Shown in pieces: positions 1 through 12,543 of a DNA stretch of 64,000 bases. The first letter of the stretch is position 1. The number at the start of each line of letters is the position of its first letter. This DNA comes from a bacterium (lineage in GTDB: Bacteria > Patescibacteriota > Minisyncoccia > Phycocordibacterales > Phycocordibacteraceae), in contig JAJZTG010000001.1 in the NCBI GenBank assembly GCA_021849125.1, positions 96,422-160,421 of the forward strand. Reading direction: 5' to 3'. The position numbers and the translations under genes are program-made. The notes beneath the pieces are model-generated. The model ran no database searches and had not been told where the DNA came from. It was given only the letters and a program-made list of their open reading frames with translations.

Positions 1-1
1 C

Positions 2-1330
2 GTTCAGAACGGAGTGTGCGAAAACGACGCCGATGACTTGCTTGACGTGTGGCTCATTCGTGGCGACTTTCTTCTCACGCTTTTCGACAGCCATACCTTT
101 ACACACATCGTCGGTAATCCGCCTTACATTCGACAGGAGATGGTGCCGAATGCGCTCATGGCGGAATACCGCCGTCGATTTGAGACGATCTATGACCGCG
201 CAGACATCTATGTGCCGTTTATCGAGTACTCACTCAAGCTGCTCGACGAAGGAGGAGCGCTCGGTTTCATCTGCGCCGATCGCTGGATGAAAAACCGCTA
301 TGGAGGTCCGCTCCGCGATCTCGTGGCGAGAGAGTACCACCTACGTACCTACGTCGATATGATCAATACGGACGCCTTCCACTCGGAGGTGATCGCGTAC
401 CCGGCCATTACGGTGATTGCTCGCGAACCATCCGGTCCGACGCGCATCGCCAAACAGCCGAAAATAGACGTAAAGACTCTCGCACAATTGTCACGAGCGC
501 TCACGCAGGACGAACTGCATGACAAAATTCTCGAGACGACTGTATCTGCTGGCGGGCCATGGACGCTCGACGAGTCGGATGCGCTTACGCTGATACGCCG
601 TCTCGAATCGGAACTCCCCGCACTCGAAGATGCGGGCTGCCGGGTGGGTATTGGTGTCGCTACTGGTGCGGACAGTGTCTTTATTGCACCGTTCGACACA
701 CTCAACGTCGAGTCGGACCGAAAACTTCCACTCGCCATGACCAAAGATATCCAAAGTGGAGAGATAGAGTGGAGGGGTCTCGGCGTGATAAATCCTTTCG
801 ATGAAAGCGGCAAGCTCGTGTCGCTCTCAGACTATCCGAAGTTGCGCGATTATCTCGAGCTTCACAGCGATACAATCAGAAAACGTCATGTATCAAAGAA
901 GAATCCGAATGGTTGGTACAGGACCATCGACCGCATTTATCCAGAGCTCGTTGCAAGACCAAAGCTCCTTATTCCGGACATCAAAGGTGATGCTCATATA
1001 GTGTATGAAGAGGGTCGGTTCTACCCACACCACAATCTTTATCACATTACCTCGGAGAGTTGGGACCTCCGTGCACTCAAATCTGTGCTTTCCTCAGGTA
1101 TCGCACGTCTTTTCATCGAAGCGTACTCAACACGTATGCACGGCAACTGTCTTCGTTTCCAGGCACAGTATCTGCGACGCATCCGCATCCCCCGATGGAC
1201 TGACGTGCCGAAGGACCTTCGACACCAATTGCGTGACGCGGCTGAAAAGAATGATACGGCCTCGCGCGAAGACGCTGTCTCTCGGCTCTACTCCCTAAGC
1301 ACCAAAGAGCGTGATATCATCAGGTCGTAA
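2..1330 (+). CDS. N6-adenine DNA methyltransferase, gamma-class (TaqI/Eco57I-like), 5'-truncated by window edge
   Basis: The frame is open from base 2, and the listed ORF begins at a GTG. It carries the motif IV NPPY ([11 protein letters not shown]) preceded by a GDFLL motif, followed by a long C-terminal region consistent with a target-recognition domain. Its stop codon overlaps the start of the next gene (TAATG). Confidence 0.8.
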
Positions 1331-2067
1331 TGGCCCTGAATTTAGCGAAATACGAAGAGCGTGCAAAGCGTGCAGTTAAGCTCTTTTGGGGCAATCGTGC
1401 GGCCGCTGCGCGCCAGCAGAAAGCAAACGGGGTTGTCGATCAAGGTACACGCGGAGCAGTCACGGCAGGCAAAAACATGGACGGCTTTGCCGAACTAATG
1501 GCCCAGGTGGTAAGAGCCAACGGACTTGAGCATGCGACCATAATTCACGGTGGACGTCTCGTTACTCTGCCTGGCTATTTCCGTCCTACTAAGCAATGGG
1601 ATTTCCTCGTAATCAATGAGGGACGGCTCGTTGCGGCGATTGAGTTCAAGTCGCAAGTAGGGTCTTTCGGCAACAATTTCAATAATCGCACTGAAGAAGC
1701 TATTGGTACGGCCCATGATTTATGGACGGCGTACCGTGAAGGCGCATTCGGAGAACATCCAAAGCCGTTTGTCGGATGGCTAATGCTTCTTGAGGATGCC
1801 GCCGGTTCTCGGCGCCCAGTTAACGATAATTCGCCGCACTTCCCTCTGGCTAATGACTTTGAAAATTCCTCTTATGCCGATCGATATAACGTGCTGTGTA
1901 AAAAGCTTGTGCAAGAAGGACTTTACACGTCAGCTTCAATTATGCTCTCGCCGAAATCTGCCAAACGGACAGGAGAGTATTCAAATCTGAGCGACCTAAC
2001 GAGCATAGACACTTTCGTCGCCACACTAGCAAGTCACATCGCAGGCGAAGCTGCGCGATCAAAGTGA
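1330..2067 (+). CDS. putative type II restriction endonuclease, partner of the upstream methyltransferase; possibly XhoI/PaeR7I-like
   Basis: This 245-aa ORF is translationally coupled to the methyltransferase through the TAATG overlap. Its size and the M-then-R gene order match the PaeR7I/XhoI systems as I remember them. The family assignment is inferred from context, not from recognised catalytic motifs. Confidence 0.5.
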
Positions 2068-2177
2068 AGCTGGGATTGTTCTGCACCCCTCCTTCTGAGC
2101 ATACGGCTCTTGACGACTTCGCGTCAGGTGGTAGCAACTCTCGTCCAAAGCATCCACAGATTGGACCACTAGACATC

Positions 2178-2756
2178 CTATTGGGTGATCTTGGTTGGTT
2201 TCAAAAACCGCTCAGCAATGTATTCAAGGTAATTGCGAACAAGATAGAAATCCTGCATTGGGTTAAGTTCAAGTTTTGTCGCATCGCCTGCATCCGACCA
2301 GATCACAATATCAATTTCACCGTTGAGACTTAGTGCCTGAGGTTCACATGCATTTGAGGGCCTGTCGTGTTTGAAGGTTGGATGTTTTACAATGTCGTTT
2401 GCAATGTCAACGACCCGCTTAATGTTTTCAGCGTAATAAGCGTCCACTGCTTTGGCGTCGCTCAGCATCTTGCGTAAGATACTTAACGCCTCAAGCATAG
2501 TACGCAACAATGCATACATAGCGAATGCGTATGACCATGATTTGCGCATGTAATACATCACCTCGCTGTTAGTCGGGTTTTCTTTTTTAAAAAACTCGGT
2601 GTAGCTGTCGCTAAGCGACATCATCTGGTGATACGCGTAGAGGTAGTACGAAAGTGCCACATCGGCCGTATGTTTTGATTTTTGGTCTGGGAATTTGTAT
2701 CCAGCGTAAAACTCTAGAAATTGCGGGACGCTATATTTTTGGACGAGATCTTCCAT
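2178..2756 (-). CDS. hypothetical protein; second gene of the AT-rich two-gene operon
   Basis: 192-aa ORF tightly coupled to 2759..3265, with low GC and no motif I can recognise. It is divergently oriented to the KAP NTPase, with 77 bp between the two start codons. Confidence 0.5.
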   Translation of the reverse strand: MEDLVQKYSVPQFLEFYAGYKFPDQKSKHTADVALSYYLYAYHQMMSLSDSYTEFFKKENPTNSEVMYYMRKSWSYAFAMYALLRTMLEALSILRKMLSDAKAVDAYYAENIKRVVDIANDIVKHPTFKHDRPSNACEPQALSLNGEIDIVIWSDAGDATKLELNPMQDFYLVRNYLEYIAERFLKPTKITQ

Positions 2757-2758
2757 AT

Positions 2759-3265
2759 CTATCGCACCCCAATCACTTTCCTAAATTCGTTTGCCACGTG
2801 TTCTCGTTTTGGAGGAAAATCGTTTTTGTATCTCGTCACCAATTCACTCCATTTCTTTGTATCGGGACGCTCGCCGTCCAATCGTGCCTCGTACGCAAAC
2901 TCGTGGAACATAGTTTTATATTCCTCGGCGAGCTTGGCCATATCATCAGACAAACTTTTGGAGAGATAATGCCGGTTCCGTAGATAGTGGCCAATAAAAT
3001 AGTTGAAGGCCTCACTTGCTTTTACACGCCGTCGCATTTCCGCCTCTTTTGAGGCATCATCCTGGATCGGCGAAACAAGTTCACCCACGATCCGATCCAA
3101 ACGCTCCATTCTTTTCATCATTTCGTCGAGTACTTCAGCACGTTTTGCGTACAATCCAGATTCTTTGATTGATCGAACTTGCGTACGATAGTTCATCAAG
3201 CCATTTATTAGAGCGGCAGCTGCGCCAGACCCGAGCACAGATATTGAGAATGTGACCCAGTCCAT
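2759..3265 (-). CDS. hypothetical membrane-anchored protein; first gene of an AT-rich two-gene operon
   Basis: 168 aa with an N-terminal hydrophobic helix (WVTFSISVLGSGAAAALINGLM) followed by a charged, helical soluble part. GC is visibly lower than in the neighbouring genes. It lies 2 nt upstream of the next minus-strand ORF. Confidence 0.5.
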   Translation of the reverse strand: MDWVTFSISVLGSGAAAALINGLMNYRTQVRSIKESGLYAKRAEVLDEMMKRMERLDRIVGELVSPIQDDASKEAEMRRRVKASEAFNYFIGHYLRNRHYLSKSLSDDMAKLAEEYKTMFHEFAYEARLDGERPDTKKWSELVTRYKNDFPPKREHVANEFRKVIGVR

Positions 3266-3342
3266 GGGTGATATTTTACCTCATTCTAAAGCGACTCCCC
3301 CACGGGCTGTCATTCAAGTGAACAAAGGTCTAAAATACAGTT

Positions 3343-6300
3343 GTGGAATCACCACTGCACATCCAGAAGTATCATGCCCGCCTCAAGGAAGTGTTTACTG
3401 ATTTGAGAGTGATTACTGCGAATCTTTCGGTGCTAATCAAAGCGGTTTTTCTTGGCATTCTGGTCGCTGAGATTTGGCGTCTCTCGCTCGTTGCCGCAGG
3501 AAAGGCTAATGGATGGATATTTTCAAACAACTATGAGTCCTGGGCTATTGGCATTTGCATAGCGGGAATCGCGATACTAGTCTCGTATCTTATAGCAAGA
3601 GACGTTCCTGCAGATTTCAAGAAGATTGTCGCGAGCGGCCGTATAGACGTATTTATTGCGATAAGTCTTGGTGCGTGGCTGAGCGTCGCGTGGAGCGGCT
3701 TCTTTTCAGATTGGTATACGGCTTTTGTGGCGTCGTCGAGCATTCCCCAGCTACTGACGATAATCTCCGGGCCGTTCATTCTGGCCGTTCTTATTGTGGC
3801 GAGATCTGTCGTTCGGAGGGAGAAGAAGGTTGACTCATCCTTTATAGTTGATCTCGAGCTAAACGACAAAGAGAAAGACTTGCTTGGTTTTGGCGATAAG
3901 GCGAGCAATTTCGCAGAGCGTGTCTTCAACGGCGGTTCGCCAGACAGCTTCGTATTCGGTGTCGATGCTCCATGGGGGATCGGTAAGTCGACCTTCATAA
4001 ACTTTTGCCAACAGTACTGGAGGGAGAAACATGGACACGAGATTGTAGTCTACAAATTCAGCCCGCTCCAGCACTCCGGAACAAACGACCTGCTCGACGT
4101 GTTTATTGATGGGCTCATTCAGGCAATCCAAAAGGATTCTTTTGTACCCGAGATTAAACCGCTCATCTCAAGCTACTCTCGCCTACTGAAAGAGGTCAGT
4201 CGATTTTCAATATTCGGCCTTGCTTTGCCCAGTTTCTCTACCAACTACACCGCCAAGGATGCATGCGATGATCTGACTGTTGTCCTTCGAAATTTCCATA
4301 AGAAAATAATAATCGTCGTCGACGATTTAGATCGAATCAGTTTCGATGAAATGAAGAGTATTCTCTTCGTGATCAGGAAAAGCTTCATGTTTCCGAACAT
4401 CTCATATGTCATCTGTTATGACACCGACAACATCAGCGCTCTCGAAGCAGAGACCCAGGACACGGAAAAAATAAGCGAGTTCCTAGAGAAATTCGTCAAT
4501 ATAAAAATCAGCCTCTATCTTGATCGGAAGGACTTGGTTAAGTACATCTCAGAAAATATCAGTGAGGCTCTTTCTGCGAGCACAGTGGATCCTATCTTGG
4601 TAGGACAAGCAATCGGAGGATTGAAGGATATATATAACTCGTCGATCTATCACAAGTACCTTCCATTCATCGGTGACGTCAGGAAGCTCAAGCGTCTCAT
4701 CAATACAGTGACGTTGTTCGAGCTCCAAACAACTGATTTCAAGAACACGGATTTCGACAAACGTGACTTGATCAACCTGTTGCTTATCTATATCCATTAT
4801 CCCAATGTCTTTCGAAAAATATACGACACCGAAACCGATGGAGGACGCGGATTCTTCTCTCTGGTAATTCCACACGAGGATGGATATCCAGACGAAGAGC
4901 CGGGTGCCCCTCGAAGAAACTCCCTTAGCGATTCGGAGTATAAAAATTCAAAATACTATCACGAGTATCTCAAAGAGCTCCCTGAAGGCGGTAGGCAACG
5001 CTTCCTATTGGACCAAGTGTTCAATGTAGACGTTAGATTGAAAGGCACTGGCGATAATCATTTCGCTACCCGAGACAGGTACGCTCAGATCGACAATGTA
5101 CCCGAGGACGTGCGGACATCTCTGGCCTGTTTCAATGGGGGCTGGACGAATGGCAGGAATCTAGAGACTTATCTTGACCTGATTGTTAAGCTCGCGAAAC
5201 CCGAAGAGAGTGGGCAGCATCGCTTCTACACTCGCTGGAAGGACGAGATCATTTCCGGCTCGAAAACCCTTAAAGAGGTATTTACTGACGCCAGATTTGC
5301 ATATGATAAGAGTGAAGCGCCGCGCGAGAAGCTTTGGAGAATCTTCGTCAATAATGCTAGAGACCTTAAAAAGGCGACGGCCGCATCCGTGATTTCGCAT
5401 CTGATTGAAAGTATGCCCGATTACTCGTTGCTTGAGATAAAGGAGATTGGTCTGGGTCTACGCCATAGCTTGGATTACTTTCTAACCCGTCTACTGAACG
5501 ACGCGGGCTGGACTGATCCGGCCGGTAAGCATTCCAATAACACGGAGAAACACATAAAAGAGATCGCCGAATGGGTGTTTGGTGAGAGCGCGCATTCAGA
5601 CAAAAGCATTCTCGACAGACTCTCTGCGCCCGAGCGTGGTGTATTAGGCCTATACGATTTGATGGTATTTCGACTTTCGTGCAGCGCGGATCGTGGAGGC
5701 GATATCTTTGATCTTACTCGGGCGGTCGCTCAGCACGCCAACCCCAACGCGCCCATTCAAGGCGATACACGCGACATTGCTCGTGAGGAAATGCGAGAGA
5801 TGTCTCAGAAAGTCTTCCAGATATTTAAGACACAGTACATTGATCCTAAAATAAATATCTTTGATAAAGTTGCAGCGCTGCAGATTTCTGATTTCGCCGG
5901 GAAGTACGCTACTTATCTGGCACAGAAAGTCACCGACGGAATTGTCCAACAATCTGACATAGACAAGAAAGTTGTTGAAATGAAGACTCGCATCACGAGC
6001 TTCATTCTCTACCAACTTGGGAATAACGAGATCAGTCATGGGGTTGGGTGCGGGTATTACGATCCATCTGGAACGAAGGATGGGCACGGAATCAGGAAGC
6101 TCATGAATGAATATCTCTTTGGGCTATGCTTTGACCCGTCGAAACCAGAGAACGCACAGTATTTGGTGGACTATCTGTTTAGGAATTTCGCTAATGCAAT
6201 CGCATCAGCGCGCGAGGATGGTCGAAAATACATACCGAGCATCAACGAGTTTACGAAAGTCCTCGACAAGGTTGGTCTCGCTGGCTATTGGCAGAACCAC

Positions 6301-6465
6301 GGGGCAACTATCAAGGCCCTGAAACTAGAGGATCTTGAAAAGATCGTCTTTGTCGGGAATGACGAAGCTTCGTATCGGGAATATGTGCCCTTGGTTTTTA
6401 AGGTGCTAGATGACAATCTGGCTGAGGTGCAAGCGGCGGCGGCAAAGGTTCTTGCGGCACAGTAA
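3343..6465 (+). CDS. KAP-family P-loop NTPase with four N-terminal transmembrane helices and a ~500-aa C-terminal extension
   Basis: Walker A FGVDAPWGIGKSTFIN and the KAP-type Walker B IIIVVDDLDRISF. Four hydrophobic segments fall in the first ~165 aa. The C-terminus is alpha-helical and ends in an alanine-rich stretch that looks HEAT-like. Confidence 0.8.
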   Translation: MESPLHIQKYHARLKEVFTDLRVITANLSVLIKAVFLGILVAEIWRLSLVAAGKANGWIFSNNYESWAIGICIAGIAILVSYLIARDVPADFKKIVASGRIDVFIAISLGAWLSVAWSGFFSDWYTAFVASSSIPQLLTIISGPFILAVLIVARSVVRREKKVDSSFIVDLELNDKEKDLLGFGDKASNFAERVFNGGSPDSFVFGVDAPWGIGKSTFINFCQQYWREKHGHEIVVYKFSPLQHSGTNDLLDVFIDGLIQAIQKDSFVPEIKPLISSYSRLLKEVSRFSIFGLALPSFSTNYTAKDACDDLTVVLRNFHKKIIIVVDDLDRISFDEMKSILFVIRKSFMFPNISYVICYDTDNISALEAETQDTEKISEFLEKFVNIKISLYLDRKDLVKYISENISEALSASTVDPILVGQAIGGLKDIYNSSIYHKYLPFIGDVRKLKRLINTVTLFELQTTDFKNTDFDKRDLINLLLIYIHYPNVFRKIYDTETDGGRGFFSLVIPHEDGYPDEEPGAPRRNSLSDSEYKNSKYYHEYLKELPEGGRQRFLLDQVFNVDVRLKGTGDNHFATRDRYAQIDNVPEDVRTSLACFNGGWTNGRNLETYLDLIVKLAKPEESGQHRFYTRWKDEIISGSKTLKEVFTDARFAYDKSEAPREKLWRIFVNNARDLKKATAASVISHLIESMPDYSLLEIKEIGLGLRHSLDYFLTRLLNDAGWTDPAGKHSNNTEKHIKEIAEWVFGESAHSDKSILDRLSAPERGVLGLYDLMVFRLSCSADRGGDIFDLTRAVAQHANPNAPIQGDTRDIAREEMREMSQKVFQIFKTQYIDPKINIFDKVAALQISDFAGKYATYLAQKVTDGIVQQSDIDKKVVEMKTRITSFILYQLGNNEISHGVGCGYYDPSGTKDGHGIRKLMNEYLFGLCFDPSKPENAQYLVDYLFRNFANAIASAREDGRKYIPSINEFTKVLDKVGLAGYWQNHGATIKALKLEDLEKIVFVGNDEASYREYVPLVFKVLDDNLAEVQAAAAKVLAAQ

Positions 6466-6477
6466 AGAGATTTCCCA

Positions 6478-6500
6478 AGTCATAAGAAATTTACTGCACT
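6478..6500. repeat. perfect 10-bp inverted repeat (tttactgcac tag gtgcagtaaa) just after the KAP gene stop
   Basis: Read directly from the sequence. There is no downstream T-run, so it is either a terminator-like hairpin or a protein-binding or recombination site. Confidence 0.4.
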
Positions 6501-6664
6501 AGGTGCAGTAAACTCTCTCTATGCATAAAACTCACGGTCGAAAAGCTAGCAAATAAGCCATTGCGCAAAAGTTTTAGGGCAAAATCATAATTCCGTCGTA
6601 CACGTATCGTACTTTTGCCAAGATTGTGGAATACATTTGCTCGCTTCTGTGCGATTGTCTATAC

Positions 6665-7297
6665 ATGAGCGCAAAAGATAAACGAGAGCTGGATCGGATG
6701 CTTCGAGGTGTTGGCAGAGCCATGGATCAGGCGAGAATCGACGGTCCGTTTATTAAGGCAGAAGAGAACAAGGCACTCGGTATTGCGTATACGATCAAGG
6801 ATGTGTATGTCGGAGAGGTCGCCATCAGACGTAGTGCGAACGCATGGTGGATGAATGATCAAAAAGTCGCCTTGATCATAGAGGCCATGAAAGAGGGCCA
6901 TACTGTCAACACGGCGTGTCTGTATGCTGAAATCTCCCGTGCTCAATGGGAGTACTTCAATAAAATCCATCCAGAATTTGAGGCGGTCATCGAGATGTGC
7001 GAGCAATATCAGCTCGTACGTGCTATGGACACGGTGAACCGCAACCTTAACGATCCCAAGATGGCCAGGTGGCTTCTTGAGCGACGGCACCCTAAATTCA
7101 AAACACGGCTCACGCTCGACGACGTCCTCGGTCGACAGATCCCGAGTTTGATTACGAATCTCGCGTTTCAGGACGAAAACGAAACCCCAGAGGCGATTGC
7201 AGCAAAGCTTACACAACTCGCAGAAACGATTCTTTCGGAAAACGAGGCGCGCAAGCGTGGGCTTGTAGTGCCGAATTCAAAAGCACTTTCCGATTAG
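6665..7297 (+). CDS. phage terminase small subunit-like HTH protein (Terminase_2-like)
   Basis: The C-terminal region contains MARWLLERRHPKFKTR, which resembles the W-L-L-E-R-R motif of phage TerS (P27-family) proteins as I remember it. No large terminase is nearby. The start is placed at the internal ATG at 6665. Confidence 0.45.
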   Translation: MSAKDKRELDRMLRGVGRAMDQARIDGPFIKAEENKALGIAYTIKDVYVGEVAIRRSANAWWMNDQKVALIIEAMKEGHTVNTACLYAEISRAQWEYFNKIHPEFEAVIEMCEQYQLVRAMDTVNRNLNDPKMARWLLERRHPKFKTRLTLDDVLGRQIPSLITNLAFQDENETPEAIAAKLTQLAETILSENEARKRGLVVPNSKALSD

Positions 7298-7309
7298 AAG
7301 TAACTTTTC

Positions 7310-7870
7310 TTACTTAACTACCACCCATTCGCTCGCGGACCAGCCAGCTTCCCCGACCTTGTCTGAGTCGGCTTCGGCCGCCCCCTTGGTGACGCGCACT
7401 TTCGTCAGAGTCATGCTTGTGTCGATGACCCTTACCTCCGAGCCGTTATGGACACAGAACAGCCCTTCTTTGGTCAGGTCTAGAATGCCCAGGTAGTCCT
7501 TGGCAAGAAGCGCCTTTGTGTATTCGTCGTACACGGCCTTCGTAGGCGCGAGGCAAAGCGCTTGGGTTGGGTCATCATTGCCTGGAAGTCGAAGATACGC
7601 ATCTTGCCCGAGCGTCCGCGCTTCGCTTGGTCCAGCGTTTCTTTGTGTCGTAGCTGTAGCGTTCTCGGTGGCGCTGTTGATGGAACTGAGTACTGCTCCG
7701 AACAAGAAGAGGCCGACAAAGAGGCTGAAAACAGGATGGCGATGTGGCCAGCTTCGCAAATCAGATTGGCAATAAGGGCACTTCTTTGCAGCGGAGGGAA
7801 TATCCTTACTGCAATGTGGGCACGATTTTGTCTCTGCAGAGTTCTGAGTCATGGGAATTATGCGATCCAA
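7310..7870 (-). CDS. membrane protein with an N-terminal zinc ribbon (CPHC...CPYC) and a single TM helix
   Basis: Two CxxC pairs near the N-terminus, then the hydrophobic stretch VFSLFVGLFLFGAVL, then a soluble C-terminal domain. Confidence 0.5.
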   Translation of the reverse strand: MDRIIPMTQNSAETKSCPHCSKDIPSAAKKCPYCQSDLRSWPHRHPVFSLFVGLFLFGAVLSSINSATENATATTQRNAGPSEARTLGQDAYLRLPGNDDPTQALCLAPTKAVYDEYTKALLAKDYLGILDLTKEGLFCVHNGSEVRVIDTSMTLTKVRVTKGAAEADSDKVGEAGWSASEWVVVK

Positions 7871-7883
7871 TAATTCCCGTGCA

Positions 7884-8078
7884 GGACGCAGAAACCCGCC
7901 ACGGGCAATGAGGTTTCCCCCAAGGGCGGATCACGCCGAACCCCGTGACGGGTTTCTGCGCGTGATCCGACTTGAAGACCATGCCGCGGCCGGAGCCTTC
8001 GGTTTAGGTCCCGCCCCTCACGGGGCGCATATTCGTGTGTAGCACATGTTCATGATAGCCCAGAGCGGCTATCATCGG
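7884..8078 (+). ncRNA. structured RNA / regulatory leader with mutually exclusive hairpins
   Basis: Bases 7887-7905 are complementary to 7942-7960 (19 bp, one mismatch). Bases 7927-7936 are complementary to 7960-7969 (10 bp), and that second 3' arm abuts the 3' arm of the first hairpin. Further GC hairpins follow (cgcccctcacggggcg and tgatagcc..ggctatca). All of this sits upstream of the gene starting at 8129. Confidence 0.35.
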
Positions 8079-8128
8079 AACCCCTATCACTGACTTGCAG
8101 AAAAGCCAAGGAGGCATAGCATTTTGGT

Positions 8129-8899
8129 ATGAACGCTCACGAGGCTAGCACCTCGGTTTTTACAAGTGACCGTGATGTCATTGCGGAGATTGAGCGCATT
8201 TTGCCGCAGCCACTGGTCGATTCTCTGAAGGAGCGCATTTTACAGGACAGGGTGTACGATCCTGCCCATGCCGAAGCGTTCAGTCTCCTAAAGGAGGCAT
8301 TTCGTAAGATTGGTTTTCGAGTAAATAGAAAAACACTCGCCACAAAGCTAAGAGATTTTCAACGCGCCCTCGAGAGATTCGACGACGAGCTCATTTCAAA
8401 CTTTGCGTACGAACCACACCAAAAGCTATATGCTGTCCATCCAAGTCGTCGAAATGGCGTGGCTTTAATGCGTGAGCTTCGGCAGTCTTACGATCTGTTT
8501 GCAAAAACATACCGTCTTCTACTGAGCGAGGCTACAACTGCGTTCCATTCGTCAGTTGTGGAAGAGTCCGTCGAGCTCCAGAATCTCACAATCAGATTCT
8601 CGAATGAAGAGGGTGCAATCTATGTTGGTGAGAGTCGTTGCCAACTCCCGCCGTTCAAAAATGGCCACTATCTTTGCAGAGTCATGTTTACTAAACCGCC
8701 CAAAGTGCCAGTCGACTGGTCAGACGTGGCCAACGAAATGTTCGGCAAGGATCCCATAAGACGGGCAGAACGTCTTCGGTTAGAAAGAAAAGTTAGAGAT
8801 GCAATGTATGCAGTAAATCGAATCGTTGGGAAATTGAATACCCCCGATAAGTTATTTACCTGGAAAGACAAGACAATTATTCGAAACTATGGCCGATAA
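8129..8899 (+). CDS. hypothetical protein
   Basis: 256-aa ORF inside the low-GC mobile region with no motif I can recognise. Confidence 0.5.
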   Translation: MNAHEASTSVFTSDRDVIAEIERILPQPLVDSLKERILQDRVYDPAHAEAFSLLKEAFRKIGFRVNRKTLATKLRDFQRALERFDDELISNFAYEPHQKLYAVHPSRRNGVALMRELRQSYDLFAKTYRLLLSEATTAFHSSVVEESVELQNLTIRFSNEEGAIYVGESRCQLPPFKNGHYLCRVMFTKPPKVPVDWSDVANEMFGKDPIRRAERLRLERKVRDAMYAVNRIVGKLNTPDKLFTWKDKTIIRNYGR

Positions 8900-9049
8900 C
8901 TCTCAGGTGATTCACCTCTGAATTCTTTAGGCTGTCGCCAGCTCGTTTCTTTTTGAAGGAGTCATGAACGCTCCTGGTAAAACCCTCTGCTTTCTTGGCA
9001 GGTGCTCTTAGAGCGTTCATCCCTGTCAAGAAAGGAGCGGGCTTTACTC

Positions 9050-9229
9050 ATGGCAAGCCAGCAACTAGCACAGAAATTCAAAGATGCGATTGCAGAAGAT
9101 TTCGACAAAGAAGTCTCTCTCGACGACGCTAGCCGGATGCTCTCAGATCTGGTTGGTTATTTTGACCTGCTTGCGAAGTTGCGGCACCAAATAACGGATC
9201 AAAATCATGGATCAAAGAAATCAAATTGA
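9050..9229 (+). CDS. small hypothetical protein
   Basis: Internal ATG within ORF 9002..9229 (MASQQLAQKF...), lying in the mobile-element context. Confidence 0.3.
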   Translation: MASQQLAQKFKDAIAEDFDKEVSLDDASRMLSDLVGYFDLLAKLRHQITDQNHGSKKSN

Positions 9230-9964
9230 GGCAGTATTGAGGCTACATCTTAACGAAAGAGTTATCGCATTCCACCCAATATACGCAAAAATCTTGGGAG
9301 GAATTGAGGAGGCCATATTCTTTCAGCAGATTTGTTTTTGGAGCGATAAAGGTAAACGTGATGATGGTGCTATATACAAAACGTCTAAGGATATCGAGGA
9401 GGAGACAACGCTTAGCGATCGGGTACAGCGCCGCGTGAAGAAAAAATTCAGGAGCTCGGACTGCTTGAGATTTGGCTTGAGAAGGTCGGAGGCGGTCCTG
9501 TATGCCACTACCGCGTGCACTGGGATGTCCTGCGAAAATGCCTAAAGGATTTCTACCAACTGTCGGAATCCTCTATATATTCAGAAACTACTCCAAGAAA
9601 AAAGAATGCGGTTTCTTCAAAGCAAGAAACCGCAACCACCTCCTCCCGGGGGAAATTCAATGCCACGAACGTAAGGATGACCAGATATAAAAATCCTGCC
9701 GTGCAAGAAATCGTTGAGACGTTCGTGAGACAGTGCGAGAAAAATATGGGCATTGCCCCAGTAATCGGTGCAGACGACTTCCGCATGGCTTCTTATGCTC
9801 TCAACCGCGGAGGGCTTTCAAAGGAAATGGTGTTTGAGATGATTGATGATTGGTTCGCGCAGCCGACAAAGGATGGCGACATATTGCATCTCACCAGAGC
9901 CATCTCAAAGAGCAGAATCAATACCTATCGAGGAGAGAACGTTAACAGGTTCAAGAGATCTTAA
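9207..9964 (+). pseudogene. winged-HTH (replication-initiator-like?) gene split by a -1 frameshift at an A6 tract; pseudogene, homopolymer error or recoding
   Basis: ORF 9207..9545 reads ...LSDRVQRRVKKK across aag aaa aaa at 9438-9446. The -1 frame continues without a stop from 9416 as IQELGLLEIWLEKVGGGPVCHYRVHWDVL..., and runs into ORF 9515..9964. One extra A would fuse the two into a protein of roughly 250 aa. Confidence 0.4.
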
Positions 9965-10161
9965 TTAACTTTATGGAAACAAAAAACGAAAAAGGACGGG
10001 TGCTATCAGCAAGTGAACGACTGCGAGAAGACTTGGAGTATGCAATCGGCAGATTCGTCGAAAAACTAAAGAGAGAGATTGGAGTTCGTTAAGACTTGCA
10101 TTCCCGTCCCACGAAGGTACTATCCCGACCCCCGGGGATTACGGGACATAAAAACGGACCT

Positions 10162-11733
10162 ATGGAAAAAGCCATCATCTACACACGCGTTTCGTCGAAA
10201 GAGCAGGAAGAAACCGGCTACTCGCTCGATGCGCAGGAGCAGTTCCTAAAGGAATACGCTCAAAAGCTTGGGCTCCCGGTTGCCAAAATCTACAAGGTCA
10301 CCGAGTCCGCGAGTAAATGGCAACTGCGCAAGACGCTCGACGCCATGCTCGAATACGCTGTTGAGCACGATGTGAAAGTTATCCTTGGTGAGAAGATCGA
10401 TCGACTGACCCGCAGTCTCAAGGACGCCGCAATCATCGATGACTGGGTGCACGACGAGGACGGGCGTCAGGTGCACTTCGTCAAAGAACACTTCATCGTC
10501 AGCAAGGAAACGCGTGCGCACGATAACTTCGTGTGGGACATGAAGGTCGCTGTGGCGCGCTTCTACACAAACAATCTCTCGGAGGAAGTTAAGAAGGGTC
10601 AGAAGCAGAAGATTGCCGAGGGATGGTTGCCGACCAAGCCACCACTCGGTTACAAGACCGTCGGCGAAAAAGGAAAGAAGATCCACATGATCGATGACGA
10701 CAAGGCTCCGTTCGTGCGACGTATGTTCGAGATGTATTCGAGCGGTAACTACTCTGTCATCTCTCTTGCGGATGCAATGTATCGCGACGGGCTTCGGAAT
10801 CGCGCCAACAAGAAGGTTGGCAAGAGCCGCATGTACGACATGCTGCGCGATCCGTTCTACTACGGCGCGATGCAATGGAAGGGTCAGGTGTTTGCAGCCA
10901 AGCACGAGCCACTCATTTCCAAAGAACTCTTCGACCGCGTACAGGCGCTCTTAGCGCGACCGTTCAATCAACTCCAAATGCAGAAACACCTACCGGTGTT
11001 CAAGGCGAAGATGCGCTGTGGCGCGTGCGGCGGCTCGGTAACGTGGGAGACGCACAAGGGCTACTGGTACGGCCACTGCAACGGTTACAAGCGCAAGGAC
11101 ATGAAGGCAAAATGCGAAAGCCGCCACATCTTCCTGCGTCAGGACAGGATCGAGGAACTCATGTTCCCGTTGTTCGAAAAAGCTACACCCAAAGGCGCAC
11201 ATGTGATCGAAGTGCTGAAGGAGGCATTGAAGGAAAGCCACGCGGAAGAAGTCGACCGATTCGATGCGCAGCTCACAAGTCTCAACCTGACGATCGACCG
11301 ATCTCAACGACGACTCGAAACGATCTACGAGGACAAGCTAGATGGCAAGATTTCGGCGGAAATGTATGAAAGCTTGGCCAAGCGCTATTCCAGCGAGAAA
11401 GAGGCTGCTACGGGCGAAATTTCGCGCCTGAACCGGGGTAACAAGCGCTACTACGAGGCTGGGTATGCCATTCACGAGCTCGCTCTCCAGGCAGCGGCCA
11501 TTTACAGCGACGAAAAGACGACGAACGAGGATCGTCGGATGCTCCTGAGCTATGTTTTTTCGAACATCGAGCTAAACGGCGAAGAACCTAAGTTTTTCTA
11601 CACGCCAGCGTTCGATTTCGTGGTGAATTGGGTACCCAAGCTAAATTTGATTTTAGAACTCGAAAATAGCTTGGAAACTAAAAGACGAAATGGCGCTTTC
11701 GCGCCATCTCATCCTGTTCTGCTCCGCGGGTAG
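10162..11733 (+). CDS. large serine recombinase (integrase)
   Basis: N-terminal resolvase catalytic domain with IIYTRVSSKEQ (catalytic Ser). A recombinase domain follows, then a zinc ribbon CGACGG...HCNGYKRK and a coiled-coil C-terminus. The stop codon at 11731-11733 overlaps the tRNA 3' end. Confidence 0.9.
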   Translation: MEKAIIYTRVSSKEQEETGYSLDAQEQFLKEYAQKLGLPVAKIYKVTESASKWQLRKTLDAMLEYAVEHDVKVILGEKIDRLTRSLKDAAIIDDWVHDEDGRQVHFVKEHFIVSKETRAHDNFVWDMKVAVARFYTNNLSEEVKKGQKQKIAEGWLPTKPPLGYKTVGEKGKKIHMIDDDKAPFVRRMFEMYSSGNYSVISLADAMYRDGLRNRANKKVGKSRMYDMLRDPFYYGAMQWKGQVFAAKHEPLISKELFDRVQALLARPFNQLQMQKHLPVFKAKMRCGACGGSVTWETHKGYWYGHCNGYKRKDMKAKCESRHIFLRQDRIEELMFPLFEKATPKGAHVIEVLKEALKESHAEEVDRFDAQLTSLNLTIDRSQRRLETIYEDKLDGKISAEMYESLAKRYSSEKEAATGEISRLNRGNKRYYEAGYAIHELALQAAAIYSDEKTTNEDRRMLLSYVFSNIELNGEEPKFFYTPAFDFVVNWVPKLNLILELENSLETKRRNGAFAPSHPVLLRG

Positions 11734-11759
11734 GATTCGAACCTACGACCAACTCGTTA

Positions 11760-12363
11760 CACGTTCTCTCTTGTTACCAAGAGCGTGGACTATATCATCA
11801 CCCGTATCTGCGTCATGCAGATCGAGGGTGCGAGGCGCTTCCCCAGCCCCAGTTTTGGACTCAAAACTCGTTTGAATTCAAAACTGGAGCTGGGTACTCC
11901 CTTGCGGGATAGTCTCTAGACCTTCTCATCTTCCGATGAGCTTGGCTCGGGATTGCCCACAGCATTTCCTCTGTTAGGGGTTCCCCGAATTCACCTCGTG
12001 TTCGACCTAAATCTCTTTAGGAAGCTGCGTAATGCCTGCGTGCAATTCGCGGTGACAGTTCGCACAAACAAGAACGCATTTATCGATTTCTTCTTTGATC
12101 TTTTCCCAAGATCTCGTGAGACCTTTCGTCGAGAGACCGAAGTCTTTCTGGCTCGGATCTTTGTGATGAAAATCGAGTGCTCCTGAATAACGACTGTATC
12201 CGCACATAACGCACTTCCCGCCCTTGTATTCGCGCGCCATTTCTCGAAGCTTCTTTCGACGCTCCGAAACGGCTTTACGCAAGTACTCGGCACGGTCGGC
12301 ATAAGTCCTTTTCTCTTTTGGCATACTCATTTAAGTATACCACTCGGGTTTTGGACTTGAACC
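11760..12363 (-). mobile_element. group I self-splicing intron carrying an HNH homing endonuclease ORF
   Basis: R element AGAGACUA (plus-strand 11910-11919), S element GAUAUAGUCC (11788-11797), and a P9 hairpin CUCUUG-GUAA-CAAGAG just before the 3' splice site. The 5' exon ends in U and the intron ends in G. The HNH ORF lies in the same orientation, about 35 nt inside the intron. Confidence 0.65.
12007..12330 (-). CDS. HNH homing endonuclease (intron-encoded)
   Basis: 107 aa with CVMCGY ... DFHHKD ... LVCANCHRELH, the classic HNH Cys/His arrangement. Confidence 0.8.
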   Translation of the reverse strand: MSMPKEKRTYADRAEYLRKAVSERRKKLREMAREYKGGKCVMCGYSRYSGALDFHHKDPSQKDFGLSTKGLTRSWEKIKEEIDKCVLVCANCHRELHAGITQLPKEI

Positions 12364-12387
12364 ACAGCGAGCCGCTCTACCACTGAG

Positions 12388-12543
12388 CTACCGCGGAATG
12401 TATTTTCCTTCCGCGGCAGCTCAGGTCTGAGCTACCACCGAAGGGGCCGAGCGAAATATGAAAGTATTCTTTGCATATTTCCGAGGCCCCGAACGGGAGC
12501 AAGCAGTTGCGAAGCAATCTGCTTACCGCGGAATGTATTTTGT
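12388..12543. repeat. 18-bp direct repeat (taccgcggaatgtatttt) at 12388-12406 and 12526-12543, bracketing a GC-rich hairpin cluster
   Basis: The first copy covers the tRNA 5' end plus its immediate upstream sequence. The segment between the copies contains a long near-perfect hairpin (12447-12495). Confidence 0.5.

What the first reader, a model, noticed from the sequence alone, without database searches (positions are those of the whole stretch)
3343..6465. Unusually large KAP P-loop NTPase with an N-terminal 4-TM module
The KAP Walker A (APWGIGKST) and Walker B (VVDDLDR) are clear. In the canonical KAP architecture the TM helices are inserted inside the NTPase domain. Here four TM helices precede the P-loop instead, and a ~500-aa helical C-terminal region follows it. 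The gene lies in the same low-GC island as the R-M system. KAP NTPases are recurrent but functionally uncharacterised components of defence islands.
Basis: partly seen in the sequence, partly recalled or inferred. Interest (0 to 1): 0.55.

Follow-up and report, generated by a model that had tools for sequence, protein, structure and literature searches.

The report
Membrane-anchored KAP NTPase on a mobile island
This is a real 1,040-residue membrane-anchored KAP-family ATPase/GTPase carried as cargo on a small integrase-bearing mobile island in a Patescibacteria genome; it is most likely a stand-alone anti-phage protein of an uncharacterised but fairly widespread family, and its domain order is not as unusual as first thought.

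Summary
ORF 3343..6465 (+) encodes a 1,040-aa protein with a KAP_NTPase domain (Pfam E=1e-38), intact Walker A and B motifs, four N-terminal TM segments (N-in/C-in) and a ~580-aa helical C-terminal region. It lies in a low-GC island (0.49 versus 0.59).

It is not a one-off. The whole architecture is conserved in about 280 clusters at 50% identity, mostly in Patescibacteria but also in Paenibacillus, Pseudomonas, Burkholderiales and plasmids. The C-terminal region occurs only in this family. It folds as a HEAT/ARM-like alpha-solenoid and matches no known enzyme fold.

The proposed link to the divergent two-gene operon is refuted: 0 of 57 related loci contain it. The recurrent neighbours are large serine integrases and unrelated restriction-modification systems.

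Other bacterial KAP proteins also carry N-terminal TM bundles, and none of those sampled had TM helices inserted in the NTPase domain. The "unusual order" premise is therefore weak. KAP NTPases fused to unknown C-terminal regions were experimentally shown to be antiphage in 2026.

Best reading: a single-gene, membrane-bound, NTP-switched defence protein, and a new member of a known kind. Interest is modest.

The parts
3343..6465 (+). Complete gene for the 1,040-aa TM4-KAP-solenoid protein (GTG start; stop codon included)
   Evidence: ORF list. An identical protein is on record (P0001) and full-length homologues reach 45-86% identity.
3266..3342 (.). 77-nt divergent intergenic region. It holds a sigma-70-like match on the + strand (CTGTCA-18-TAAAAT, 3307-3336) that ends 7 nt before the GTG.
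   Evidence: Promoter-like matches in this region are no more frequent than in shuffled sequence, so this is only a candidate.
3412..3816 (+). N-terminal membrane module, aa 24-158. Four hydrophobic helices at about aa 24-52, 66-85, 101-121 and 134-154. Predicted topology is N-in/C-in.
   Evidence: Hydropathy, AF2 helices at pLDDT about 80-85, positive-inside rule. At least 3 segments precede Walker A in 206 of 219 family members. Conserved polar positions: G38, E43, Y82, R86, S98, R100, D102, Q136, P144.
3901..4719 (+). KAP-family P-loop NTPase domain, aa 187-459
   Evidence: Pfam PF07693, E=1e-38. hhalign to F-plasmid PifA gives probability 97.5% over this module only. 65 of 273 columns are invariant.
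3967..3993 (+). Walker A, APWGIGKST (aa 209-217)
   Evidence: Read from the sequence. GxGK[ST] is present in 219 of 219 full-length members. G212, G214, K215 and S216 are invariant.
4315..4335 (+). Walker B, VVDDLDR (aa 325-331)
   Evidence: Read from the sequence. The motif is present in 211 of 219 members, and the Walker A to Walker B spacing is 108-113 aa (5th-95th percentile). D327, D328, L329, D330 and R331 are invariant.
4720..6462 (+). Family-specific C-terminal region, aa 460-1040: an all-alpha, HEAT/ARM-like solenoid with no Pfam or NCBIfam match
6490..6512 (+). 10-bp hairpin (TTTACTGCAC-TAG-GTGCAGTAAA) 25 nt after the stop codon. It is a terminator candidate but lacks a T-run.
   Evidence: Sequence. 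The RNA fold gives -14.4 kcal/mol, z = -4.0, and 0 of 200 shuffles fold as well.
14..2067 (+). Context: type II R-M pair in the same island, an Eco57I-like N6 methylase (cut by the window start) and an XhoI-family endonuclease
   Evidence: Pfam and PADLOC. The full-length 566-aa methylase is seen in L005.
2178..3265 (-). Context: divergent two-gene operon (168 aa, then 192 aa), not part of the KAP unit
   Evidence: No family hits. Absent from all 57 related KAP loci. Homologues of the 192-aa gene lie elsewhere without a KAP gene.
10096..11733 (+). Context: large serine integrase of the island
   Evidence: Pfam Resolvase + Recombinase + Zn_ribbon_recom. PHROG integrase at E=1.6e-78. Serine recombinases recur near KAP in about 14 of 57 loci.
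11721..12397 (-). Context: right border of the island, a tRNA gene split by an HNH-bearing group I intron. The tRNA 3' end overlaps the integrase stop codon.
   Evidence: Rfam RF00028 at 62.6 bits. Exons read directly from the sequence. In-silico splicing yields a valid tRNA.

Best explanation
The gene encodes a stand-alone, inner-membrane-anchored KAP-family NTPase with three modules. The first is a four-helix N-terminal membrane bundle. The second is a catalytically intact KAP P-loop domain. The third is a 580-residue HEAT/ARM-like alpha-solenoid. Both of the latter face the cytoplasm.

The gene is cargo of a ~12.7-kb low-GC integrative element in a Patescibacteria chromosome. That element carries a large serine integrase, a replication-initiator-like gene, a small-terminase-like gene and an XhoI-type R-M system, and it is inserted beside a tRNA gene.

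The most likely function is anti-phage or anti-mobile-element defence by a single protein. In the inferred mechanism, the solenoid binds an invader-derived (or invader-perturbed) protein. This drives an NTP-dependent conformational change or oligomerisation of the KAP domain at the membrane. The attached TM bundle then causes a membrane lesion or blocks a membrane-associated step of infection, analogous to the permeability lesion triggered by F-plasmid PifA.

Shown here: the architecture, topology, intact motifs, family-wide conservation, mobile/defence context and absence of a partner gene. Inferred: the defence role, the assignment of the solenoid as sensor and the TM bundle as effector, and oligomerisation.
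For: Identity: Pfam KAP_NTPase at E=1e-38. Walker A and B motifs and a GDVRKLKRL motif are invariant in the 32-sequence alignment; the Walker motifs are present in 219 and 211 of 219 full-length members.

Membrane anchoring: four hydrophobic segments, AF2 helices, positive-inside topology N-in/C-in. The arrangement is conserved in 94% of members.

Single-gene module: no neighbour cluster occurs in more than 14 of 57 loci. A strong hairpin follows the stop codon.

Mobile and defence context. In the window: XhoI R-M plus a serine integrase. In the closest relatives: type I R-M (P0002), C5-methylase/HNH plus a tyrosine integrase (P0003), a serine recombinase plus SNF2-PLD and an MmeI-like methylase (P0004), and an Eco57I-like methylase plus a serine recombinase (P0005). 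A type III R-M gene abuts the KAP gene in 5 loci. The top Pfam families among the 149 nearest ORFs are recombinase and R-M components. Relatives on B. glumae plasmids sit beside integrases and an AIPR protein. The IMG/VR contig L073 carries a serine integrase, a cI-like HTH and ImmA/IrrE.

Patchy, cross-phylum distribution: identity falls to 68% or less after the top three relatives, whereas RpoB relatives are 84-92% identical.

Precedent: KAP NTPases fused to unknown C-terminal regions protect against phages and need both Walker B and the C-terminal region (PMC13552941). PifA senses T7 proteins and causes membrane depolarisation and nucleotide leakage. PADLOC's best hit is PifA, E=1.1e-27.

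Against: There is no experimental evidence for this family.

Homology to PifA and to the other sampled KAPs is limited to the NTPase module. The validated EF_KAP proteins could not be compared because their sequences are not held.

The C-terminal region is nearly as conserved as the NTPase and carries invariant Cys and His residues, while the TM module is the least conserved part. This pattern fits 'TM = plain anchor, C-terminal region = effector or enzyme' at least as well as 'sensor plus TM effector'.

EF_KAP was reported not to act by abortive infection.

Defence-neighbour enrichment was judged by counts only, without a genome-wide background. The family is nearly absent from sequenced phages and viral contigs. 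TM prediction rests on hydropathy and AF2, not on a dedicated topology predictor.
Confidence: 0.55

Rival explanations
1. It is a defence protein with the roles reversed and without cell death. The TM bundle only tethers the protein to the membrane. The conserved C-terminal region is the effector, possibly a metal-dependent or otherwise catalytic or inhibitory module. The KAP NTPase licenses that effector to block phage DNA entry or replication directly (superinfection-exclusion-like, non-abortive).
For: The TM module is the least conserved region (column conservation 0.52), whereas the C-terminal region scores 0.63-0.68 and carries invariant C596, C780, C903, C929 and H798 plus the CSADRGGD and GVGCGYYDP motifs. 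EF_KAP protects equally at low and high MOI and needs its C-terminal region. The gene sits next to the integrase in temperate-element-like loci, where exclusion genes typically lie.
Confidence: 0.25
2. It serves the mobile element rather than the host. It would be a membrane-associated NTPase involved in element maintenance, in competition with other elements (for example conjugation or satellite interference), or in post-segregational killing. Any phage exclusion would be a side effect, as has been suggested for PifA.
For: The gene is consistently found on integrase-bearing elements and plasmids. The BASEL paper notes that PifA has a very narrow phage range and may have another primary role. 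The window's island also carries replication-initiator-like and small-terminase-like genes.
Against: The flanking elements differ: serine or tyrosine integrases, plasmids, and loci with no integrase detected within the flanks examined (up to 10 kb where the contig allowed). The gene therefore moves as independent cargo, not as a core element function. Its commonest non-recombinase neighbours are R-M systems.
Confidence: 0.12
3. It is a housekeeping membrane scaffold or signalling NTPase of Patescibacteria, for example in cell-surface or host-attachment biology, and is only incidentally located in an island.
For: The family is most common in Patescibacteria (about 25 of 57 species-level loci) and is well conserved along its whole length. 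Its eukaryotic relative Kidins220 is a membrane scaffold (established knowledge).
Against: Only 57 species representatives out of 185,579 were recovered, which is a lower bound from a pattern-based scan. Distribution is patchy across unrelated phyla. The gene lies in a low-GC island. Close RpoB relatives are abundant while KAP relatives are few and distant. The gene has no fixed chromosomal neighbourhood.
Confidence: 0.05

Closest known systems
[quoted passage not shown]
   Same: Both are single proteins with TM helices, a KAP NTPase and a large C-terminal region with no known domain. Both are found on mobile DNA near serine recombinases. This is the same architectural and functional class, and its members have experimentally shown antiphage activity that depends on Walker B and on the C-terminal region.
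   Different: EF_KAP is modelled with one N-terminal TM helix and one TM helix inside the KAP domain, followed by a 322-aa C-terminal region. This protein has four N-terminal TM helices, none inside the domain, and a 580-aa solenoid. The recombinases linked there are small ones; here they are large serine integrases. Sequence relatedness could not be tested because the sequences are not held.
PifA of the F plasmid (Pif phage-exclusion system)
   Same: PifA is the best PADLOC match (E=1.1e-27). hhalign gives probability 97.5% and 25% identity over the KAP module, including the motif that precedes Walker A. PifA is also carried on a mobile element, and its action is associated with a membrane lesion.
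   Different: PifA (741 aa) has no TM segments, its Walker A to Walker B spacing is 145 aa, and its C-terminal half is unrelated. It is encoded with the repressor PifC, which is absent here.
Other N-terminal-TM KAP proteins on Firmicutes plasmids (B. wiedmannii, L. intestinalis; B. thuringiensis has two N-terminal segments)
   Same: The domain order is the same. The first two have four hydrophobic segments before a Walker A at about residue 212-216; B. thuringiensis has two before a Walker A at residue 174. All are followed by a long C-terminal region. One of them sits next to type I R-M genes.
   Different: For the two proteins tested (B. wiedmannii and L. intestinalis), homology is confined to the NTPase module (family residues ~160-510). 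The TM modules and C-terminal regions are not detectably related.
QatA of the QatABCD system
   Same: QatA is a KAP-family NTPase used in defence. There are weak PADLOC and NCBIfam matches.
   Different: The NCBIfam equivalog score is 27 bits against a cutoff of 600. No QatB, QatC or QatD-like neighbours are present.
[quoted passage not shown]
   Same: These share the same logic: a P-loop switch coupled to a helical-repeat sensor, with a membrane or other effector. Tmn is membrane-embedded and acts at the membrane. Foldseek on the full model gives weak hits to RdrA, Apaf-1, ORC and SAMD9.
   Different: They belong to different NTPase families. Tmn has its TM hairpin inside the P-loop domain. 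No NACHT, NB-ARC or YobI profile matched the window protein.

Membership tests
KAP family of P-loop NTPases (Pfam PF07693) | Match to the family profile above the curated threshold, covering most of the domain | tested here: met
   133.7 bits against a cutoff of 20, E=1e-38, profile positions 5-289 of 293.
KAP family of P-loop NTPases (Pfam PF07693) | Walker A (GxxGxGKS/T) and Walker B (hhhhDDxDR) motifs | tested here: met
   APWGIGKST and IIIVVDDLDR. Walker A is present in 219 of 219 and Walker B in 211 of 219 full-length members, and the core residues are invariant in the 32-sequence alignment.
KAP family of P-loop NTPases (Pfam PF07693) | Two or four TM helices inserted within the NTPase domain. 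From memory of Aravind et al. 2004, this was described for all eukaryotic and certain bacterial members, so it is not universal. | tested here: not met
   No hydrophobic segment lies between Walker A and Walker B. The spacing is only 108-113 aa family-wide. The feature is also absent from PifA and from all eight other sampled KAPs, so it does not decide membership.
KAP family of P-loop NTPases (Pfam PF07693) | Sporadic distribution and location on mobile elements | tested here: met
   The gene lies in a low-GC island with a serine integrase. Relatives occur on plasmids and next to integrases in several phyla.
PifA / Pif system | Full-length similarity to PifA | tested here: not met
   hhalign aligns only family residues 170-490 with PifA residues 14-357.
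PifA / Pif system | Adjacent pifC repressor gene | tested here: not met
   No such neighbour was found in the window or in related loci. pifC is adjacent to pifA in F.
QatABCD (QatA) | NCBIfam equivalog NF041923 above its cutoff, and qatB/C/D neighbours | tested here: not met
   27.2 bits against a cutoff of 600. No QueC-like or TatD-like neighbours.
Validated antiphage 'KAP + C-terminal region of unknown function' proteins (PMC13552941) | KAP NTPase followed by a large C-terminal region with no known domain, in a single ORF | tested here: met
   The 581-aa C-terminal region has no Pfam or NCBIfam hit.
Validated antiphage 'KAP + C-terminal region of unknown function' proteins (PMC13552941) | Protection against phage that depends on Walker B and on the C-terminal region | not testable with these tools
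   This needs plaque assays. Only the intactness of the motifs can be shown here.
Validated antiphage 'KAP + C-terminal region of unknown function' proteins (PMC13552941) | Sequence homology beyond the KAP module to a validated member | not tested
   The sequences of EF_KAP and the three metagenomic proteins are not held.
Tmn / YobI-family NTPases | TM hairpin inserted within the P-loop domain, and YobI-type NTPase | tested here: not met
   No insert. The Pfam assignment is KAP, not YobI.

The most novel reading that the evidence does not exclude
The family is a self-contained, membrane-embedded immune receptor. A conserved HEAT/ARM-like solenoid recognises a widely shared phage or mobile-element component. 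The KAP NTPase then oligomerises, as RdrA and STAND proteins do, and gates the 4-TM bundles into an ion or nucleotide leak. This would be one of the main dedicated non-restriction defences of Patescibacteria, spread among them and into Firmicutes and Proteobacteria by serine-integrase satellite-like islands. A variant of this reading is that the invariant Cys/His cluster in the solenoid is an unrecognised catalytic or metal centre, that is, a new effector domain.
Probability: 0.2. Interest if true: 0.55.

Novelty: new member of a known kind. Interest (0 to 1): 0.33.

Why it matters
Patescibacteria (CPR) have tiny genomes and few recognised immune systems. A 3-kb single-gene defence candidate that recurs across CPR classes on integrase-borne islands is therefore a useful lead for understanding how these episymbionts resist phages. 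It also offers a cleanly delimited KAP subfamily of about 280 clusters with an exclusive 580-aa C-terminal domain. Orthologues in culturable Paenibacillus, Pseudomonas and Burkholderia make it experimentally tractable. That would allow a direct test of how KAP NTPases couple sensing to a membrane output, a question open since PifA. For genome annotation, the result corrects two assumptions. N-terminal TM bundles are a common KAP arrangement. The neighbouring two-gene operon is unrelated cargo.

Tried and rejected
- **Association with the divergent operon.** tblastn of both genes against 57 loci gave 0 hits. De novo clustering of neighbours found no universal partner. A reverse search from the 192-aa gene found 20 clusters, and none of the 3 contexts examined had a KAP gene. 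Rejected.
- **Known domain in the C-terminal region or the TM module.** Pfam at E up to 10 and NCBIfam found nothing. An HMM search of PDB sequences with the full-length family alignment also found nothing.
- **PifA or QatA orthology.** Rejected.
- **Phage-encoded origin.** No match in 50,697 phage genomes, and only one full-length member among 2.9 million IMG/VR contigs.
- **att-type direct repeats delimiting the island.** None of 11 nt or longer was found between the two borders, as expected for a serine integrase. The left border is therefore set only by the GC drop.
- **Reading the original KAP paper (Aravind 2004).** It is not held. Its content is cited from memory and through citing papers.
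- **Literature searches.** One search returned nothing relevant, and one search added nothing beyond papers already found.
- **Walker A pattern.** My first regular expression was too strict and was corrected.
Full report

Yes. ORF 3343..6465 (+) has a GTG start and encodes 1,040 aa, with the next in-frame upstream stop at 3331. It contains APWGIGKST at aa 209-217 and IIIVVDDLDR at aa 322-331.

Pfam assigns a single family, KAP_NTPase PF07693, at E=1e-38 (133.7 bits against a cutoff of 20). The match covers aa 187-459 and nearly the whole profile.

Nineteen-residue Kyte-Doolittle windows of 1.6 or more occur in four segments within aa 21-158. None occurs in the remaining 880 residues; the highest later value is 1.4, at a core beta-strand after Walker B. 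AlphaFold2 run on a 32-sequence alignment places helices over these segments at pLDDT about 80-85.

Lys+Arg counts follow the positive-inside rule across the alignment. The N-tail averages 3.0, loop 1 averages 1.25, loop 2 averages 4.5, loop 3 averages 0.9 and the stretch after TM4 averages 3.9. This gives an N-in/C-in topology, with the NTPase and everything after it in the cytoplasm. The second refutation criterion is therefore not met either.

GC content is 0.473 for the gene, 0.493 for window positions 1-11720 and 0.589 for the rest of the window. The XhoI-family endonuclease and its Eco57I-like methylase (14..2067) lie in the same island.

**2. It is one member of a discrete, conserved family.**

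A search of 5.8 billion proteins returned 332 hits. The best 120 are all 915-1,092 aa long, cover 87-100% of the query and are 45-86% identical.

The C-terminal 581 aa were searched alone against 1.84 billion cluster representatives. This gave only 279 hits. Essentially all are ~950-1,060-aa proteins with the matching region at about residues 450-1000, or fragments of such proteins. This C-terminal region therefore exists only in this architecture.

Among 219 members of 900 aa or more:
- all have GxGK[ST], at a median position of 203;
- 211 have hhDD[L]DR;
- the Walker A to Walker B spacing is 108-113 aa (5th-95th percentile), too short for a TM hairpin;
- 206 have at least three hydrophobic segments before Walker A, and 174 have at least four.

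Column conservation in the 32-sequence alignment is 0.76 for the NTPase, 0.63-0.68 for the C-terminal region and 0.52 for the TM module. Invariant residues include Walker A/B, a GDVRKLKRL motif, and in the C-terminal region C596, C780, C903, C929, H798, CSADRGGD and GVGCGYYDP. The TM module contributes G38, Y82, S98, R100, D102 and P144 as invariant, and E43 and Q136 as nearly invariant.

**3. Who has it.**

The window's host is a Patescibacteria genome of the Paceibacteria/Kaiserbacteria type. RpoB relatives are 84-92% identical, and the rest of the window holds rpoB, rpoC, dnaE, SMC and RNase R.

A pattern-based scan of one genome per species (185,579 species) recovered 57 loci. This is a lower bound. 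The breakdown is:
- about 25 labelled as Patescibacteria lineages;
- 9 Paenibacillus or Cohnella;
- 12 Proteobacteria (Pseudomonas, Massilia, Undibacterium, Roseateles, Methylophilaceae and others);
- 4 Bacteroidota, Ignavibacteria or Rhodothermaceae;
- 3 Clostridia or Negativicutes;
- 4 unclassified.

Four Burkholderia glumae plasmids carry a ~31%-identical relative covering 81-91% of the query. KAP identity falls to 68% or less after the three closest relatives, while close RpoB relatives abound. Together with the low-GC island, this indicates horizontal spread.

**4. Genomic context and the proposed operon link.**

Neither gene of the divergent operon (2759..3265 and 2178..2756, minus strand) has a tblastn match in any of the 57 loci. 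Neither is present in the loci of the closest relatives examined, P0002 to P0005. Both lack any Pfam, PADLOC, NCBIfam or PHROG match.

Searching from the other side, the 192-aa gene has homologues in 20 clusters. Three contexts were inspected and none contained a KAP gene. One of them is another serine-recombinase plus type I R-M island. The proposed association is refuted.

De novo clustering of neighbouring ORFs found no universal partner. The recurrent neighbours are:
- large serine recombinases, in about 14 of 57 loci;
- ParB/N6_N4 methylases, in 11 loci;
- an HTH protein, in 8 loci;
- a type III restriction enzyme directly abutting the KAP gene, in 5 loci;
- a terminase large subunit, in 4 loci.

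Among the 149 nearest ORFs, the commonest Pfam families are Resolvase/Recombinase, N6_N4_Mtase, ResIII, Mrr_cat, C5 methylase and Methylase_S.

The closest relatives each sit beside a different R-M system and an integrase:
- P0002: type I R-M;
- P0003: C5-methylase/HNH plus a tyrosine integrase;
- P0004: a serine recombinase plus SNF2-PLD and an MmeI-like methylase;
- P0005: an Eco57I-like methylase plus a serine recombinase.

The one IMG/VR member lies between a serine integrase and a lysogeny-type regulator set with a cI-like HTH and ImmA/IrrE. A 10-bp hairpin (-14.4 kcal/mol, z = -4.0) follows the stop codon. The gene thus behaves as a monocistronic cargo module of integrative elements and defence islands.

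**5. The window's island.**

Besides the R-M pair and the KAP gene, the island encodes:
- a small-terminase-like protein (6626..7297, PHROG E=9e-11);
- a replication-initiator O/DnaD-like protein (9207..9545, E=1e-17);
- a large serine integrase (10096..11733).

No capsid or tail genes were found. At about 12.7 kb, this looks like a satellite-like element or a cryptic prophage remnant.

The right border abuts a tRNA gene that ARAGORN missed. The tRNA is interrupted by a ~600-nt group I intron (Rfam RF00028, 62.6 bits) that contains an HNH ORF (12007..12330, minus strand). The exons start at 12397 and end at about 11721, and they splice in silico into a valid tRNA, either Thr(UGU) or Asn(GUU) depending on the junction. 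No att repeat of 11 nt or more was found.

**6. What the parts look like.**

The full-length model has pLDDT 76 and pTM 0.53. It gives only weak Foldseek matches to ORC/Cdc6, RADAR RdrA, Apaf-1 and SAMD9, which reflect the AAA+/STAND-like NTPase core.

**7. Relation to known KAP proteins.**

PADLOC's best hit is PifA (E=1.1e-27), with weak QatA and PDC-S20 hits. A direct profile comparison with F-plasmid PifA aligns only the KAP module: family residues 170-490 against PifA 14-357, at 25% identity and probability 97.5%. PifA has no hydrophobic segments, and its C-terminal half is unrelated. The QatA equivalog scores 27 bits against a cutoff of 600.

In a sample of other KAP proteins from plasmids:
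- four are soluble (PifA, Trichormus, Halomicrobium, Corynebacterium);
- two (B. wiedmannii and L. intestinalis) have four hydrophobic segments before a Walker A at about residue 212-216;
- B. thuringiensis has two such segments before a Walker A at residue 174;
- none has TM segments inserted in the NTPase domain.

Homology to the two proteins tested (B. wiedmannii and L. intestinalis) is again restricted to the NTPase module. The order 'N-terminal TM bundle, then KAP, then a long C-terminal region' is therefore a recurrent architectural class. This family is one lineage of that class, with its own TM module and C-terminal domain.

The literature itself disagrees on where KAP TM helices lie. 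The title of Aravind et al. 2004 and the Pfam description, as I recall it, say 'inserted within the NTPase domain'. [quoted passage not shown]

**8. How it most likely works.**

Shown here: a membrane-tethered, cytoplasm-facing KAP NTPase with intact catalytic motifs; a large family-specific solenoid; no partner gene; and a mobile, R-M-rich context.

From the literature:
- KAP NTPases fused to unknown C-terminal regions confer phage resistance that needs both Walker B and the C-terminal region (PMC13552941).
- PifA senses T7 gp1.2 and gp10 and produces membrane depolarisation and nucleotide leakage.
- Tmn, an unrelated TM P-loop NTPase, senses a phage protein through helical regions and acts at the membrane.

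Inference: the solenoid binds an invader protein, the KAP domain switches or oligomerises on NTP, and the TM bundles produce a membrane lesion or block a membrane step of infection.

I put the defence role at about 0.6. I put this particular assignment of sensor and effector at about 0.3. The conservation pattern (C-terminal region strongly conserved with invariant Cys/His, TM module weakest) fits the reverse assignment equally well, and EF_KAP was reported to be non-abortive.

**9. Novelty and score.**

The protein is correctly identified and real, but it is not an architectural oddity, and its general class has been experimentally linked to defence. What is new is a cleanly delimited, unnamed and uncharacterised subfamily. 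It has an exclusive 580-aa solenoid domain, is enriched in Patescibacteria and is borne on serine-integrase islands.

I rate it a new member of a known kind, with interest 0.33.

Noticed in passing
window 11721..12397 (-): A tRNA gene is split by a ~600-nt group I intron. The Rfam RF00028 core lies at 11767..12054 (62.6 bits). An HNH-type ORF (12007..12330, minus strand) lies within the inferred intron, between the 5' exon and the Rfam core. ARAGORN reported no tRNA in the whole window. In-silico splicing gives a valid tRNA, Thr(UGU) or Asn(GUU) depending on the junction. The tRNA 3' end overlaps the stop codon of the serine integrase, so it marks the island's right border and is the likely integration target.
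   Followed up: partly
window 7895..8010 (-): A LOOT RNA (Rfam RF03000, 48.9 bits against a gathering score of 46.4) lies inside the island, immediately 5' of the zinc-ribbon protein gene at 7310..7870 (minus strand). Its function is unknown, and it may be a leader element for that gene.
   Followed up: no
window 1..~11720 (the left end lies ~1 kb before the window start; see L005 ~5.6-6.3 kb): The low-GC island combines a large serine integrase, a replication-initiator O/DnaD-like gene (9207..9545), a small-terminase-like gene (6626..7297), an R-M system and the KAP gene. No capsid or tail genes are present. At about 12.7 kb, this gene set resembles a PICI-type phage satellite or a cryptic prophage remnant, here in a Patescibacteria host.
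   Followed up: partly
window 2178..3265 (-): The divergent pair (168 aa with an N-terminal hydrophobic helix, then 192 aa, 2 nt apart) has no match in Pfam, PADLOC, NCBIfam or PHROGs. The 192-aa protein has homologues in only 20 clusters (37-99% identity). One of these lies next to a UDG gene, a serine recombinase and a type I R-M system (L079). It appears to be another small orphan cargo gene of such islands.
   Followed up: partly
KAP protein aa 278-300 (window ~4174..4242): A short hydrophobic loop with low pLDDT (consensus RFSxFGxxLPxF) lies between Walker A and Walker B, in the stretch where PifA carries extra residues. It could be a membrane-dipping loop, or a vestige of the TM insert described for other KAP proteins.
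   Followed up: no
KAP protein aa 596-929 (window ~5128..6129): Four invariant cysteines (C596, C780, C903, C929) and H798 lie within conserved motifs (ACFNGGW, CSADRGGD, GVGCGYYDP) inside a domain that otherwise looks like a repeat scaffold. This may be a metal site or a catalytic centre.
   Followed up: no
L009, L010, L023, L024, L026 (immediately upstream of the KAP gene): In five Patescibacteria loci, a ~755-aa ResIII + endonuclease protein (type III restriction enzyme by PADLOC) lies at a median distance of 6 nt from the KAP gene. Type III methylase matches occur among the nearest ORFs across the loci. This is the tightest recurrent adjacency seen, but it is confined to a subclade.
   Followed up: partly
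L063 (B. glumae plasmid NZ_CP100261.1, 9776-28520): The plasmid-borne relative (31% identity over 91% of the query) sits between two site-specific integrases and an imuA-imuB-dnaE2 mutagenesis cassette, with an AIPR (abortive-infection) family gene nearby. This offers a culturable host for testing the family.
   Followed up: no
literature (PMC13001434 compared with Aravind et al. 2004 and the Pfam PF07693 description): Published descriptions disagree on whether KAP TM helices lie inside or outside the P-loop domain. In the nine prokaryotic KAPs examined here, none had an insert.
   Followed up: partly
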